Assembly: GCF_006345805.1 (NCBI RefSeq)
Contig: NC_043011.1
Span: forward strand, 46,760,464 to 46,824,463
From: Octopus sinensis
Lineage: Eukaryota
Direction: 5' to 3'
Length of the DNA: 64,000 nucleotides
Shown: one piece after another, positions 9,361 to 47,705 of the stretch
Layout: each line of letters starts with the position of its first letter
How positions within the stretch are numbered: the stretch's first letter is position 1
The notes under the pieces: model-generated
Database searches by the model: none
What the model was told of the DNA's origin: nothing
Seen by the model: the letters and a program-made list of their open reading frames with translations, nothing else
Position numbers and translations under genes: made by a program

Positions 9361-9983
9361 TGTTTCTATGACATTCAAGCGTCCCATATCAAAACAATTC
9401 TCCTGAATGGGATGTTGGTCCAATGCAGGGTTCAAGGCAAGCAATTTAGCCTCAACCACCCCTAATTATTTTTCTTGAGCCTCAGGAACCCTAAGGCTGA
9501 TTGCCCAGTTTCCATAACCTATAAATGACCAAGGTCACAGCATTTCCCTTGAATGGAATGATGGTCTGTTGCTGGGCTCAAGGTCAGCAATTTTGAAGGG
9601 AAGGAAAGGCAATTACATTCACCCCAGTATTTTGATAAAAGGTTTAAATATAAATAGAAACGCTTCAATAGAATCAGAGATTACCTCAGAAAGATTGGAA
9701 TTGAGTGAGTTAACAGCCATGGCTGTGTGATAAGAAGCTTGCTTCTCAACCACATTGTTCTGGGTTCAGTTCCACTGCATGGCATCTTGGGCAAGTGCAT
9801 TCTACTATAACTTCAGGCTGGCCAAAACCTTGTGAGTGGATTTGATAGAGGGAAACTGAAAAATGCCTATCATATATTCTTTACTGGAATATATTCTTTA
9901 CTGGAAAGCAATACTCTAGTATTGCATTACTATTTTCATTGAAACTTCTTCACTGTTCTCGCTCTGTTAACGCTTTGGCGTTC

Positions 9984-10076
9984 AGATGAGTGTACTGGCT
10001 GATGAAGATAAATCAATTATATGATTGGCATTCGTATTTTGAAAAATCCGAAACCGGTACTGCATTATCCTCATCT
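9984..10076 (+). ncRNA. Type-I hammerhead ribozyme motif (long stem II, imperfect stem I)
   Basis: CTGATGA at 9999-10005, stem II agat...atcc, GAAA at 10050-10053, palindromic stem III ACCGGT, then A. Distal stem I agatgag/ctcatct. Confidence 0.65.
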
Positions 10077-10249
10077 AGGTTTTGCATTTTTCAGATGTTC
10101 TTCCTAGAGGTAAGACAATTTTTCATGTTTGTTGCACACACGCGTCTTTACTAGTACATACGCAGTGAAGCTATACATTAGCGTCGTATTTATTACGTTC
10201 GCTATTTTCCAGTAAATATCGATACTTCGTTGTATCATTTATTTACTTT

Positions 10250-10324
<75 letters not shown>

Positions 10325-10326
<2 letters not shown>

Positions 10327-10465
10327 AAGTTAATCCAAACAAGAAAGCACAAAAAAACACAACAACGCGAGGACGTGGAACAAATATAGTATTATTAGTA
10401 ACATAGGAGAAGGAAAGATCCAGAGAAGGGAAGATGGAGGAAAAAAAATCACCAACGGTACACAT
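10325..10465 (-). mobile_element. Short PLE-like element, internally deleted copy (HHR lost)
   Basis: Colinear with 36560-36755 and 47520-47705 (caacaacgcgaggacgtggaacaaata...gagaagggaagatggagg) but lacks the HHR segment. Flanked by (TA)n. Confidence 0.6.
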
Positions 10466-11304
10466 ATATATATATATATATGTATGTATGTATATGTGTA
10501 TGCCTCGGTGTCTGTGTTTCCGGACAACCCAATATATGAAAATATAGATTGGTACTTTAAACAAAATGTATTTCCTTTTTAATGGTGACTCAATACAGGT
10601 GTGTTCACTTTTGTTTGTATTTCCATTTATTTGTTCTTTCGCATTTTTCAATGAGAAGATTTATATATATATTTTACATGACCATAATAAATCCCTTTGA
10701 ATAACACATCTGGCACCAGACAATAAAAAAGAAATTTAATACATATATAAATAATAGATAATTAGATAAAAAATAGATAAACATGAAGTAATCTCTCCAA
10801 AGGCTAACGCTTCTGATGCAGGTCAAATTCAAAACAAATTTTCTTAATGCATCTGTTCTTAAGTTCTTAAAACTCTGTGGTTGTCCCTAATTAGGAACAG
10901 GGAAGAATGCCATGAAAAATACATCAATATTTATATTACATTACTAACTACAATGTGTGGCTGTGTGCGTATGTAAGTGCAGAAGTATGTGTGTGTATAT
11001 GTGTATGAATATTTGTGATGGTGTAGTGTGGTTGCCTGTGTTTTCTTTATGTGAAATAAATGTATATTTGAAAAGGTGGTTAAGGGAAAGTAAGCCGCAA
11101 ATTTAAACTGTGCTTTTTAAATTCTCAGCTCTTTAGCTTAAGTACGCACATACATAAAAGTGCAGACATATATACACATACATATATGCATAAACACACA
11201 TGCACACACATATACCCCCACACGCATCCATAAATATATTTTTAACAATACTTAGACATACATATGTTTGGTAATAAAAACAAGATAGATAGACCTGACA
11301 GCAT

Positions 11305-11553
11305 GAATATATATATATATATATACATGTACGTATATGTATATATGTGTATGTATGTATGTATGTATGTATGTATGTATGTATGTATGTATACATATAT
11401 ACATACATACATGTATGTATATGTATATATGTGTATGTATGTATGTATATATATATACATACATGTATGTATATGTATATATGTGTATGTATGTATGTAT
11501 ATATATATACATACATGTATGTATATGTATATATGTGTATGTATGTATGTATG

Positions 11554-11603
<50 letters not shown>

Positions 11604-11615
11604 ATATATATATAT
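11305..11615. repeat. Compound (TATG)n/(TA)n array with a ~52-bp higher-order unit
   Basis: Repeated tacatacatgtatgtatatgtatatatgtgtatgtatgtatg units. Confidence 0.85.
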
Positions 11616-12111
11616 TTATTATTTTTAATTGGCAACAGTATCAAAATGATTCAAGAGTTTCAAGCCGTGGCATTTGATAAGTGCCATGCATGAAATTCTT
11701 GGCCCTTGAGTTACCTTAACTTCTGCCGTAAAAACATAAAAGTAGATATACATATGCGGATGCACAGGTGTACACATGCACACGCACGTTTGTACACGTG
11801 CGCGCACACACACACACATAGACTTATATATATATATATATATATACATATATATATTCTTTTATTTTACTTGTTTCAGTCATTTGACTATGGCCATGCA
11901 CACACACACACACACACGCACACACACACACACACACACAGTGATTCCTAGTATTAATATAGTCATATTATATGATTGCATGTTGTAAGCAGTGAACAAA
12001 ATGGTTGTCATCAAGAAAAGAATAGGACAATATGTACGCAATTAGCTTTACAGAAGAACATTCTGGACCATCACGATGGTACTGTGATACACAAGCTAAC
12101 ATATAAAGCAC

Positions 12112-44360: not shown

Positions 44361-45414
44361 GTTCAATCAGCTTTATACTGTTTCTATTTGGGCTTTGTTC
44401 CTTCTATCTATGTGATTTCCTTTTCTTTTACACCTTTTCTAATTCACTACCCCACCCACTTAACTTCAAGTTATAGAACATTAAATGATGTTACATCACA
44501 CAGAAATTGATCTCAGGACTTATTTTTCGTTTTGCTGAACCACTAAGTTATAGGGATATAAACACACCAGCATCGGTTATCAAGTGATGGCTGGGGGACT
44601 AACACACACACGCACACACACACACGTCTGATGGGTTACTTTCAGTTTCCGCCTACCACATCCACTCACAAGGCTTTGGTCGACCTGAGGCTACAGAAGG
44701 AAACATTTGCCCAAGTTGCCATGCAGTGGGACTGAACCCCAAACCAAGTGGTTGGGAAGCAAGCTTCTTACCACACAGCCATGCCTATGCATGTTTTAGT
44801 TTCAGTCCCAAGCCCCACTCTTCTGTTTTTCTGATAAGGGTTTTCTTATACTGTGTATTTTTTATGTCTGTTTCTATGAATTTTCCCTATCTGTTATCTT
44901 TCATTTTCTATCTTTTATTTGTTTTAGTCATCAGATTGTGGCCATGCTGAGGCACTGCCTTGAAAAATTTATTGTCAAATGCATCGACCCCCCCACTCAG
45001 TACTTTTTCTTTTGTTTAATGATATGATGTACGACTTCTTGTCGTCACTGATATAGCTGAACTGTTATAATATCAAACGTTCCTGATGTTCTCTTATTAC
45101 TCTCCAACTGTGTATCTTCATCAAGCACTCCAGGATATCTCTTTTCAATAATTCCTATGACCTGCACGCTATGACTGCTCAAATGACACTCTTCCCAGAC
45201 TGTTCTGGACATGCTCATTTATACTAACTGGTAGAGTTCACTTAGCCAAACACGGGTGTATACAGATTCCCCATACAACATTTTTCAAGTCTGGTACTTG
45301 CCCAATCAATTCCTTTTGCTGAACTGCTAAATTATGGGGACATAAACACACCAAAACCAGTTATCAAGTAGTGGTGGGGACAAACACACACATATAAATA
45401 TACATACATATATA

Positions 45415-45467
<53 letters not shown>

Positions 45468-45486
45468 GTATGTATGTATATATATA

Positions 45487-45519
<33 letters not shown>

Positions 45520-45580
45520 TATATATATATATATATATAATATATATATATATATGTGTGTGTGTGTATGTATGTATATG

Positions 45581-45611
<31 letters not shown>

Positions 45612-45641
45612 TATATGTATGTGTGTGTGTGTGTATGTATG

Positions 45642-45689
<48 letters not shown>

Positions 45690-47519
45690 AATTAGAAAAA
45701 AAAACACCTTTTATCAATTCAATAATGAAAAATTAAATTATACCATTTAGAAAAATTACATATAATAGAAAGATTAAATATAAGATAAAACATTTAACAA
45801 TGATTAATTAATTTGCAAAAAAGTAAATAAAATGTATATATTTGGTATATATATATGTATGTATGTATATGACATTCTTCTTTCAGTTTCTGCCTACCAA
45901 ATCCACTTTAGTTAGCCTGAGGCCATAGTAGAAGTCACTCGGCCAAGCTATCATGCAATGGCACTGAACCCGGAACCATGTGGTTAGGAAACAAACTTTT
46001 TACCACACAGCCATAACTGTGCCAATTTTTAATTTCTCTTTAATTCACTTCAGTGTTTATATAATTTTCTGATATGCTCAATCACTTTTATCCAACAGAT
46101 TCCCATTATTTTGGAAAGTAATTGCCAAAATCACCCTTTTATCTTTTTTTTTTGATGAGCTGGTTCTAATGAATTCTATAAACACTTAATAAACTGTTGC
46201 ATTGTACAGCATACTCAAAAGTCTCTGATGATCACTTATCTGAAACACTGTGTAACAGCTTGTAAGGGTTTTTTTTGGCTTTGATAAAATACCTTATATA
46301 TGTTACATGTTGCAGTCATGGTTGCAAGATCAGGGTTTCAATTCCCAAACCAGCATGATGTTCTTAGGTAAAACACTTCATTACATGTTGTTCCAGTTCA
46401 GTCAGTTGTCAATGAGTGACCTTGCAATGGACTGGTGCTAGTTTGCGAAGTGGCATTACTTGAAAAGCTAAAGGAGGATTGTGACAAAGAGCATTGTGAT
46501 CAGTGGTGTATAACAACATCTGATAGTCTGGTTGATATAGCAATAAAAAGCACCATTTGAGCGTGGCTGCTGCTAAACCCACTTGACTGGCCCTCATACC
46601 AGTGGCACGTAAAAGCATGCACTACACTCTCGGAGTGGTTGGCATTAGGAAGGGCATCCAGCTGTGAAAACTCTACCAGATCAGATTGGAGCCTGGTGCA
46701 GCCATCTGATTCGCCAGCCCTCAGTCAAAATCGTCCAACCCATGCTAGCATGGAAAGCAGACATTAAATGATGATGATGATTCATAAGTTTGTATGTAGA
46801 TGTATATCCACTCACATATACACACATTCTTTAATTCTTTTAGTTGTTTCAGTCACTTGACTCTGGCCATGCTGGAGCACTTTCTTGAAGGGTTTTAGTC
46901 AAACAAATCGACCCCAGGACTTATTTTTTTTGAAAGCCTAGGACTTATTCTATCATTCTCTTTTGTCAAACCACAAAGTTACGGGGACATAAACACACCA
47001 ATGCATGTTGTCAAGTTGGGGACAAACACAGACACAAAGACACATGAACATAAGTATAGACATACATACTTATATATAGTTTCCGTCTAACAAATCTTCT
47101 CAGAAGGCTTTGGTTGGCCTGAGGCTATAATAGAAGACACTTACCCCTGGTGCTATACAGTGGGATTGAACCCAGAACTATATATACTGGAGCCTGGTGC
47201 AGCCTTCTGGCTTCCCAGATCCCCGGTCGAACCGTCCAACTCATGCTAGCATGGAGAATGGACATTAAACGATGATGATGATGATGATGATATATATATA
47301 TATATATAATCAGTTAATCACACACTAGGAAAAAAACTTCTTCCCATAAAAGGTTAGTAGCATCCTGATAAAAGATTTTATAATATTTTTTTTTTAAATA
47401 ATAAAAAAAAAAAGAAAGAAAAAAATCACCTTTACACTTCAAAACTATATTATGTAATTCTCATATAGAATTTCATATATATATATATATAGTTAATTAA
47501 AAAAAGAAAACACAAAAAA

Positions 47520-47705
47520 GCAAAAAAACACAGCAACGCAAGGACGTGGAACAAATAAAGTATTATTGGACGCTCAGGAAAGAAGGGAAGAAGGAGGGTT
47601 TATTGTTTCGAGCGGAGCTCTTTGTCGGAAACCTAGGAGAAGGAAAGACCCCGAGAAGGGAAGACAGTGGAAAAAAATTGGCAGCGGTACTCACGAGGTC
47701 ACATG
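47520..47705 (-). mobile_element. Short PLE-like element with degenerate HHR (47598-47632)
   Basis: Minus strand: gttt CCGACAA a gagc tcc gctc GAAA caat aaac. Same family as 36560-36755. Confidence 0.6.

What the first reader, a model, noticed from the sequence alone, without database searches (positions are those of the whole stretch)
9897..47705. Population of hammerhead-ribozyme mini-elements next to (TA)n microsatellites
Seen: type-I HHR motifs at 9999 (+), 12354 (-), 14033 (-), 14921 (-), 15454 (-), 31389 (+), 36686 (-), ~39628 (-), 39905 (+) and 47628 (-). They belong to several unrelated 200-500-bp non-coding families. The best-preserved have palindromic stem III (ACCGGT, ACATATGT, ACAGCTGT), and most 3' ends abut (TA)n. 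Established: minimal type-I HHRs with palindromic stem III mark Penelope-like pLTRs and retrozymes and can act as dimers. Inference: a diverse, high-copy, microsatellite-targeting ribozyme-retroelement system in this genome, about one motif per 6 kb here. Seven of ten lie on the putative host-transcript strand and could cut intronic pre-mRNA.
Basis: partly seen in the sequence, partly recalled or inferred. Interest (0 to 1): 0.75.

Follow-up and report, generated by a model that had tools for sequence, protein, structure and literature searches.

The report
Penelope retrotransposon ends with hammerhead motifs
The ten motifs are mostly decayed, cut-off ends of several abundant Penelope-type jumping genes, likely of an octopus, each carrying the small hammerhead RNA motif known for such elements; three lineages spread with an altered catalytic core, so these elements likely do not need to cut their RNA to multiply.

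Summary
The motifs are real and above chance, but they are not a new system of non-coding mini-elements. They belong to five family groups. For each group I found genomic copies joined to a Penelope-like (PLE) reverse transcriptase and/or GIY-YIG endonuclease frame: Hydra-type (9999, 12354, 14033/14921), Neptune-type (15454, 31389, 36686, 47628) and Penelope/Poseidon-type (39629/39905). The link rests on one locus for the 9999 and 31389 families and on DNA similarity only for 15454 and 36686. The window copies are 5'-truncated terminal repeats. Only 12354 has an intact canonical ribozyme. 14033/14921 is one insertion duplicated, and the 39.6-39.9 kb pair is one fold-back insertion that does not touch (TA)n. 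(TA)n targeting by Hydra elements is in print and is linked to the endonuclease linker in Neptune. No host gene was found, and the 7:3 strand split is not significant. Two details are unusual: family-wide core variants (U4C in two families, A6U in one), and a tRNA-like head in the Poseidon repeat that may be a Pol III promoter. This scan noted the tRNA-headed family and the A6U core before on other DNA. Cleavage is untested.

The parts
9892..10253 (+). Family A: about 400-bp unit of a Hydra-type PLE end; hammerhead core at 9999 with 6-nt palindromic stem III; this copy lacks about 43 bp including the 5' strand of stem I; ends at (TA)n
   Evidence: 19 of 24 best genomic copies are intact
10327..10464 (-).
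12228..12608 (-). Family B: 3' UTR/pLTR of a Hydra-type PLE; intact canonical hammerhead at 12354 (stem I 5 bp, stem II 6 bp, 8-nt palindromic stem III, H17=C); short end at (TA)n
13920..14223 (-). Family C: pLTR of a Hydra-type PLE; core at 14033 with family-wide U4C and an extra purine before G12; 8-nt palindromic stem III
14808..15111 (-). Second copy of the same family C insertion, inside an 888-bp tandem duplication (real or assembly-made)
   Evidence: 13666-14389 identical at +888
15310..15500 (-). Old D-group (Neptune-type) pLTR stub, core at 15454, decayed; boundaries approximate
   Evidence: (84% over 38 nt only)
31325..31509 (+). D2 subfamily pLTR stub, core at 31389 with family-wide A6U, plus copy-specific changes at G12 and in stem III; 5' boundary approximate
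36556..36764 (-). Old D-group pLTR stub, canonical first half of the core at 36686, stem III palindrome broken
   Evidence: 74% over 265 nt to the Neptune-linked copy
39534..40029 (.). Family E: one fold-back insertion of the pLTR of a Penelope/Poseidon-type PLE. The minus arm (core 39629) stops at the short end; the plus arm (core 39905) carries the tail. The arms join inside the tRNA-like head, so the A-box-like part is missing and a B-box-like part stays on each arm; no (TA)n
47492..47704 (-). Young family D1: pLTR of a Neptune-type PLE; core at 47628 with family-wide U4C plus copy-specific G8 and stem III changes; ends at (TA)n

Best explanation
The motifs are the hammerheads in the terminal repeats (pLTRs) of coding Penelope-like retrotransposons, likely of three clades, left as short 5'-truncated copies that have mostly decayed since insertion. 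Shown: every family group has copies joined to a PLE coding frame, and the copies have PLE anatomy (nested 5' truncation, inverted arms, two alternative 3' ends with an optional tail). Inferred mechanism: the element's GIY-YIG endonuclease nicks the target, (TA)n for the Hydra- and Neptune-type families and AT-rich non-repeat DNA for the Poseidon-type family. The reverse transcriptase then starts inside a tandem transcript at one of two sites just past the ribozyme, and usually stops or folds back within a few hundred bases, so ribozyme-bearing stubs far outnumber long copies. In families A, B and C the start sites coincide with short TA runs in the element, so the nicked target likely anneals there. 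The ribozyme would cut only as a dimer through its self-complementary stem III. Cutting is likely not needed for insertion: the copies were made from uncut RNA, and lineages with U4C or A6U cores amplified.
For: Coding links. A: endonuclease frame runs into the unit in L054/L137, 1 of 25 loci. B: endonuclease-side frame upstream in 9 of 30 loci, RT in L132, and ribozyme plus tail directly ahead of the frame start in 6 of 20 loci. C: endonuclease upstream in at least 7 of 30 extended loci. D1: RT and/or endonuclease 2-3 kb upstream, same strand and collinear at 84-91%, in 3 of 8 loci. D2: endonuclease about 1.1 kb upstream in L163. E: the ribozyme lies in the first codons of a 391-aa frame in L364, 1 of 30 loci; ribozyme and tail lie directly ahead of coding sequence in 7 of 11 fetched loci, with a 2885-bp pLTR-ORF-pLTR period in L408; RVT_1 E=6e-8. 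Truncation gradient, as first-look candidates (lower bounds): B 2612 at the pLTR against 86 at the RT start; E 35,516 against 383 (protein and DNA queries, not strictly comparable). Inverted partner within 3.3 kb: A 6 of 25, B 10 of 30, C 4 of 25, D 4 of 25 loci. (TA)4+ within 25 nt of the short end: 64 of 69 copies of A-D against 1 of 15 for E and 6% background. 5' ends at the predicted cut: 1 of 20 long B copies, 0 of 12 long E copies, 0 of 28 informative short E copies. Variant cores: C4 in 29 of 30 D1 copies chosen on upstream DNA, canonical core and stems in only 1 of 23 C copies, U6 in 24 of 25 D2 copies. Literature: minimal dimer-type hammerheads in pLTRs, most as single truncated motifs (PMC4209133); internal RT start, tail, ribozyme at the ORF start and cleavage dispensable in vitro (PMC11167929); (TA)n targets and clade motifs (PMC8557442).
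Against: Family A's coding link is one locus, and 6 of the 13 genomic rows printed have more of the unit, not coding DNA, upstream, as a tandem or circular 400-nt template would give. 15454 and 36686 are tied to a coding element only by DNA similarity. Clades are assigned from motifs, not from a tree, and Pfam support for most fragments is weak (GIY-YIG E 0.013-0.034 for A, B and D). The (TA)n count is biased upward because the B, C and D queries ended in a few TA bases; the unselected sample agrees but is small (D-like 6 of 7, C 1 of 1, B 2 of 3, E 1 of 7 within 320 nt; background 23% within 260 nt). Homology-assisted priming differs from the non-homologous start reported for PAc. Against 'cleavage dispensable': in D2 the free positions vary (N7 8A/8C/7T/2G; H17 15A/5T/4C/1G) while other core positions hold at 21-25 of 25, and natural U4C keeps enough activity in a viroid (PMC3088659), so slow cutting may still be selected.
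Confidence: 0.85

Rival explanations
1. Some families, family A above all, are non-autonomous retrozymes: a roughly 400-nt unit is cut out by dimeric ribozymes, circularised and copied by a Hydra-type PLE reverse transcriptase.
For: Family A has an intact canonical core in 19 of 24 copies. 8 of 22 copies run on into the next unit, 6 of 13 printed rows have the unit's own 3' part upstream, and L042 has two same-strand ribozymes 429 bp apart. PLE-derived retrozymes are described (10.64898/2026.07.22.740005; PMC7229834).
Against: Only 1 of 25 A loci holds two same-strand ribozymes, so there are no long arrays. In L054 the endonuclease frame reads into the unit. For B, C, D and E the upstream DNA is UTR or coding sequence of the PLE. 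No RNA evidence.
Confidence: 0.3
2. Family E is a stand-alone tRNA-derived SINE with a borrowed Penelope 3' end, not the repeat of a coding element.
For: Most copies are short and folded back. Of 57 aligned copies, 14 reach the head start and only 2 of those (L325, L367) run on into coding DNA. Protein searches with the 54-aa start found no long PLE protein.
Against: The head follows the end of the endonuclease frame by about 30 bp in L401 and precedes the ribozyme and coding sequence in L404, L405 and L408, so head, ribozyme and coding frame are one unit. A mixed case remains open, in which short transcripts from the head give SINE-like copies.
Confidence: 0.1
3. The motifs act on host RNA by cutting intronic pre-mRNA.
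For: 12354 is a structurally intact ribozyme. One low-depth unspliced contig covers 61449-61845 in a run guessed to be RNA.
Against: No exon or splice joint was found in the stretch laid and no candidate exon matched Pfam usefully. 9 of 10 copies are non-canonical, lone minimal motifs did not cleave in vitro (PMC4209133), and the strand split is not significant.
Confidence: 0.05

Closest known systems
Minimal type I hammerheads in pLTRs of metazoan PLEs (Cervera and De la Pena 2014, PMC4209133; parts 1-2 of 4 read)
   Same: Short stem I, extra base after A9 (families C, D, E), palindromic stem III, many families per genome, mostly single truncated copies, some inverted pairs 100-700 bp apart.
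   Different: The variant described in the parts read is U3-A8; here whole lineages carry U4C (C, D1) or A6U (D2), and C also lacks the G10.1-C11.1 pair.
Hydra-clade PLEs (Craig et al. 2021, PMC8557442; section 11 and passages read)
   Same: Families A, B, C: C-terminal GIY-YIG without CCHH, CxxC before the conserved E, CxH after the conserved N (B, C), CxCX5C linker (C; split over two frames in A), DKT and an RW motif (B), hammerhead present, (TA)n targets.
   Different: B's linker is an Asn-rich stretch with no CxCX5C. Tails in B and C are about 150 nt against the usual 30-40 bp. No tree was built.
Neptune-clade PLEs (PMC8557442, passages)
   Same: D1 and D2: CX4CxxC linker, CCHH endonuclease, DKG (D1), microsatellite insertion.
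   Different: 1-2 kb low-complexity (CA- or pyrimidine-rich) 3' UTR and non-canonical ribozyme cores.
Poseidon_Ac (PAc) of Anolis, Penelope/Poseidon clade (Frangieh et al. 2024, PMC11167929; parts 1-2 of 4 read)
   Same: Family E: ribozyme at the start of the frame, two 3' ends about 30 nt apart (tail), no linker finger, AT-rich non-microsatellite targets.
   Different: E's repeat begins with a tRNA-like head (A- and B-box-like), not described in the parts read; ARAGORN and Rfam do not call it a tRNA.
Metazoan non-LTR retrozymes (PMC7229834 passages; 10.64898/2026.07.22.740005 part 1 of 5 and passages)
   Same: Type I hammerhead, unit of about 400 nt and partial tandems in family A, PLE origin.
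   Different: No long tandem arrays, direct joins to coding frames, no circular RNA shown.
Schistosome Sm-alpha/Sj-alpha SINE-like elements (second-hand, passages of PMC6765202)
   Same: Pol III-type promoter followed by a hammerhead, as in family E.
   Different: Those are non-coding tandem repeats; E's head is part of a coding PLE unit.

Membership tests
Endonuclease-positive Penelope-like elements | Single frame with RT and C-terminal GIY-YIG endonuclease | tested here: met
   B, D1 (46, 48), E (99, 104, 106); for A, C and D2 only the endonuclease side was seen (24, 48, 112); the copies seen are broken by stops or frameshifts
Endonuclease-positive Penelope-like elements | pLTR at both ends of the frame (partial tandem) | tested here: met
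   E in L408, period 2885 bp; B 5' and 3' repeats seen in different loci; not seen for A, C, D
Endonuclease-positive Penelope-like elements | Inverted 5'-truncated arm and optional 3' tail | tested here: met
   no tail seen in D (0 of 24)
Endonuclease-positive Penelope-like elements | RT groups with PLE/telomerase RTs in a phylogeny | not tested
   no reference PLE proteins were available as session sequences; clade calls rest on motifs from PMC8557442
Hydra clade (A, B, C) | No CCHH; CxxC and CxH around conserved E and N | tested here: met
   translations; A ends in C-P-Y instead of CxH where it joins the unit
Hydra clade (A, B, C) | CxCX5C linker | tested here: inconclusive
   present in C, split over two frames in A, absent in B
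Hydra clade (A, B, C) | DKT and RWK motifs in RT | tested here: inconclusive
   B has DKT in L342 (DKA in L132) and RWL; RT of A and C not recovered
Neptune clade (D) | CX2-5CxxC linker plus CCHH endonuclease, DKG | tested here: met
   for D1; linker and CCHH for D2 in L163
Penelope/Poseidon clade (E) | CCHH endonuclease without linker finger, DKG | tested here: met
Type I hammerhead ribozyme | Conserved core with stems I and II and H17 not G, at family level | tested here: met
   A 19 of 24, B 20 of 29, E 10 of 19 parsed (24 examined)
Type I hammerhead ribozyme | Canonical core in families C, D1, D2 | tested here: not met
   C 1 of 23 and D1 2 of 24 canonical; D2 has U6 in 24 of 25
Type I hammerhead ribozyme | Self-cleavage (as dimer) | not testable with these tools
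   only stem III duplex energies were computed: -10.3, -8.4, -13.1 and -3.5 kcal/mol for A, B, C and D/E
Non-LTR retrozymes | Tandem arrays with a ribozyme in consecutive units | tested here: not met
   two same-strand ribozymes per 3.3-kb locus: A 1 of 25, B 2 of 30 (one locus seen twice), C 3 of 25 (two are the window duplication), D 1 of 25
Non-LTR retrozymes | No coding capacity | tested here: not met
   coding joins for B, C, D, E; inconclusive for A (one locus)
Non-LTR retrozymes | Abundant circular RNA | not testable with these tools
   only assembled contigs were offered
tRNA-derived SINE (E) | tRNA-derived head with A and B boxes | tested here: inconclusive
   box-like motifs by eye against a recalled consensus; ARAGORN 0 genes in 25 loci, no Rfam tRNA hit, no cloverleaf, z=0.47
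tRNA-derived SINE (E) | Independent non-coding element | tested here: not met
   head lies between the end of one frame and the start of the next

The most novel reading that the evidence does not exclude
Family E is a protein-coding Penelope/Poseidon retrotransposon whose terminal repeat has captured a tRNA-derived RNA polymerase III promoter that drives both the coding element and tens of thousands of SINE-like copies of its own tip; and the U4C and A6U cores fixed in three other lineages are slow but working hammerheads kept by selection, which gives a natural series in one genome for testing what PLE ribozymes are for.
Probability: 0.3. Interest if true: 0.65.

Novelty: new member of a known kind. 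Interest (0 to 1): 0.33.

Why it matters
As stated, the finding re-finds a known feature (minimal hammerheads in PLE terminal repeats, microsatellite-targeting clades) in a genome where such stubs may number around 100,000 (rough extrapolation from 23 copies in 600 kb). Its value lies in the side results. The role of PLE hammerheads is open, and this genome holds canonical, U4C and A6U lineages side by side, all amplified. A Pol III-type head on a coding retroelement would be unusual if it works as a promoter. TA runs at the RT start sites suggest how microsatellite targeting is primed.

Tried and rejected
Rfam scan of the window: the 150 rows shown are dominated by microsatellite-driven miRNA matches with no hammerhead family among them; 180 rows were not shown, so absence is not established. 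Tandem and direct repeat finders gave mostly microsatellites and other dispersed repeats. Host-gene search: 68-73% of the window is repeat, and four candidate exon regions had no informative Pfam match. RNA: no RNA holder listed for family B; contigs laid on 59200-61900 showed no splice joint at the candidate exons; the ribozyme region itself was not covered by any read layer, so expression and cleavage there stay open. My first reading of family E as a pure SINE (searches found no coding link) was overturned. Neptune-type frames next to D1 in L071 and L075 and next to B in L007 turned out to be other families sharing a (TA)n site. Minimum-energy folds of single window copies do not show the active hammerhead fold except partly for 12354, 39905 and 47628, as expected for dimer-type or decayed motifs. 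Lunse et al. on dimeric PLE hammerheads (PMC5785218) was not held. A formal covariance model was not built. Element boundaries are taken and are approximate for 15454 and 31389.

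
Full report
Setting. The window is G000:C15:46760464-46824463 of a 2.72-Gb animal genome, 36.7% GC and 68-73% repeat by my masks. It is likely an octopus: I recalled its dispersed repeats as octopus-like, and the best protein matches to a family E peptide carry Octopus labels.

1. The observation. All ten motifs are present. A strict type I descriptor gives 3 hits in the window against 0 in 40 shuffles, and 6 in 600 kb of arbitrarily placed stretches against 0-1 in 8 shuffles, so the signal is not chance. 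Copy quality is poor. Only 12354 is canonical. 9999 lacks about 43 bp that hold the 5' strand of stem I. Six copies have core or stem III changes of their own. 14033 and 14921 are one insertion in an 888-bp duplication, and 39629/39905 are two arms of one insertion, which leaves 8 independent events. The same families give 23 copies in the 600-kb sample, so the window is about four times richer than average.

2. What the families are. First-look candidates in the genome (lower bounds): A 1697, B 2612, C 3418, D1 3399, E 4348 by DNA and 35,516 by peptide. Family B extends upstream into a GIY-YIG frame or its linker in 9 of 30 loci and into an RT in L132; in 6 of 20 loci chosen on the RT start, ribozyme and tail lie just ahead of the frame. 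Family C reaches an endonuclease frame across a UTR of roughly 1 kb or more in at least 7 of 30 extended loci. Family A is joined to an endonuclease frame in one locus. These three proteins lack CCHH and show Hydra-clade marks listed in PMC8557442 section 11. D1 extends through about 2 kb of CA-rich UTR into a Neptune-type RT/endonuclease in 3 of 8 loci. The 31389 subfamily (D2) lies 1.1 kb behind a Neptune-type endonuclease in L163. 15454 and 36686 are older relatives of D by DNA similarity only. Family E at first looked like a SINE: it has a tRNA-like head, fold-back pairs, and no coding neighbour detected in 85 loci with the PLE proteins then at hand, and database searches with its 54-aa open frame found only exonised or short products. 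Earlier scan notes claimed a coding parent, so I searched the genome with the peptide. In L364, 1 of 30 loci, it runs on into a 391-aa Penelope/Poseidon-type frame. That frame start has 383 candidates. Among 11 fetched copies, 7 have ribozyme and tail directly ahead of coding sequence, 3 of these have the head in front, L401 has the head about 30 bp behind the end of the endonuclease, and L408 is a full repeat-frame-repeat unit of 2885 bp. This matches the layout of PAc (PMC11167929).

3. Insertion anatomy. Short 3' ends of A-D meet (TA)4+ within 25 nt in 64 of 69 copies (A 14/14, B 18/18, C 9/13, D 23/24), against 1 of 15 for E and 6% at random points. Another 36 copies run on into a tail or next unit and were set aside; 4 had no recognisable end. 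The B, C and D queries ended in a few TA bases, which inflates these numbers; unselected copies agree in direction. The split follows the protein: clades with a linker finger use (TA)n and Poseidon-type E does not, in line with PMC8557442, though B lacks the finger and still uses (TA)n. In B and C both the short end and the tail end, about 150 nt further, fall on short TA-rich runs of the element itself. For D1, 11 of 24 short copies also join (TA)n at the 5' side at one place where the long element has a short AT run; the query began there, so this count is selected. I infer annealing of the nicked target to the template at both ends. Inverted partners are common (E).

4. Does the ribozyme work? 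At family level A, B and E keep a canonical core (19 of 24, 20 of 29, 10 of 19 parsed). Unrelated families use different letters in stems I, II and III with pairing kept, and a B relative changes the stem III palindrome and stem II in a compensated way. C and D1 carry U4C in the source elements (17 of 23 and 20 of 24 in the commonest core; C4 in 29 of 30 D1 copies selected on upstream DNA), and C also has a purine in place of C11.1 in 22 of 23. D2 carries U6 in 24 of 25 copies while N7 and H17 vary freely and H17 is G only once. PMC3088659 (passages) reports that U4C lowers activity in vitro but allows viroid infectivity, and that A6C is slow. 5' ends do not pile up at the predicted cut (1 of 20 long B, 0 of 12 long E, 0 of 28 informative short E copies; 29 more E copies were chosen by a query that needs sequence ahead of the cut and are not counted). 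PAc inserts uncut RNA and needs its protein for cleavage (PMC11167929). The simplest reading is that cutting is slow, dimer- or protein-dependent and not required for insertion; a slow, selected function is not excluded.

5. The host-RNA idea. No exon was supported, the strand split is not significant, and lone minimal motifs did not cleave in PMC4209133. I give it 5%.

6. Comparison and novelty. Minimal hammerheads in PLE repeats, their excess of single truncated copies, and (TA)n targeting are in print (PMC4209133, PMC8557442). An octopus repeat annotation lists 31 recently active Penelope-like families and does not mention ribozymes in its main text (PMC13282606, passages). My searches for octopus hammerheads, tRNA-headed Penelope elements, U4C and A6U found no description of these families. 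The library lacks most subscription papers, including Lunse et al. and the 1994 octopus SINE paper (seen only as a reference). I did not open any supplementary files, and those of PMC8557442 and PMC13282606 may hold these families. The tRNA nature of E's head rests on box-like motifs only (ARAGORN, Rfam and folding negative), and on 14 of 57 copies reaching its start, 12 of which fold back or meet unrelated DNA there. This scan had already noted the tRNA-headed family and the A6U core; those notes were leads, checked here as stated.

Papers seen: PMC4209133 parts 1-2 of 4; PMC11167929 parts 1-2 of 4; PMC8557442 passages and section 11; 10.64898/2026.07.22.740005 part 1 of 5 and passages; PMC7229834, PMC3088659, PMC6765202, PMC13282606 and PMC10886601 passages; all others as search listings only.

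Verdict: a real but largely known feature, new members of known PLE clades; interest 0.33, with the Pol III-like head and the variant cores as the parts worth an experiment.

Noticed in passing
window 10327-10464 (-): An eleventh PLE stub (family D) whose whole ribozyme is deleted, back to back with family A across one (TA)n; different PLE families often pile into the same (TA)n site (also L007/L141, L071, L075, L150).
   Followed up: partly
window 13666-14389 and +888: 724 bp identical in tandem, including microsatellite lengths; a very recent duplication or an assembly artefact.
   Followed up: partly
L027, L028, L051, L247, L354; L139 about 900 bp behind a Neptune-type endonuclease: Further hammerhead families with a U3-A8 core and 6-nt palindromic stem III occur in this genome.
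   Followed up: no
L189, L065, L131, L138, L348, L049: More canonical-core families with 8-nt palindromic stem III; the L189 family sits behind an endonuclease 56% identical to B's and differs from B by compensated stem changes.
   Followed up: partly
P0001, P0003: Annotated octopus gene models (a TNF-receptor-like and a WD40 protein, by appearance and Pfam list) begin with family E's peptide: exonisation or annotation error.
   Followed up: no
P0005-P0152: A diverged relative of family E occurs in other sources, sometimes as tandem units; paired W-to-R and Q-to-R changes in its peptide would correspond to a compensated change in stem II (inferred from protein only).
   Followed up: no
window 28440-28780, 32880-33340, 33500-35300: Long trinucleotide-repeat tracts with strong strand skew that give long low-complexity open frames; no sign of a gene.
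   Followed up: no
window 22059-22607 (-) and 58249-58548 (+): Open frames that look like mariner-type transposase remnants (recalled likeness; no matching Pfam hit).
   Followed up: partly
window 59356-59504 and 61652-61797 (-): Best exon-like unique segments; no splice joint in four contig sets and no Pfam hit.
   Followed up: yes
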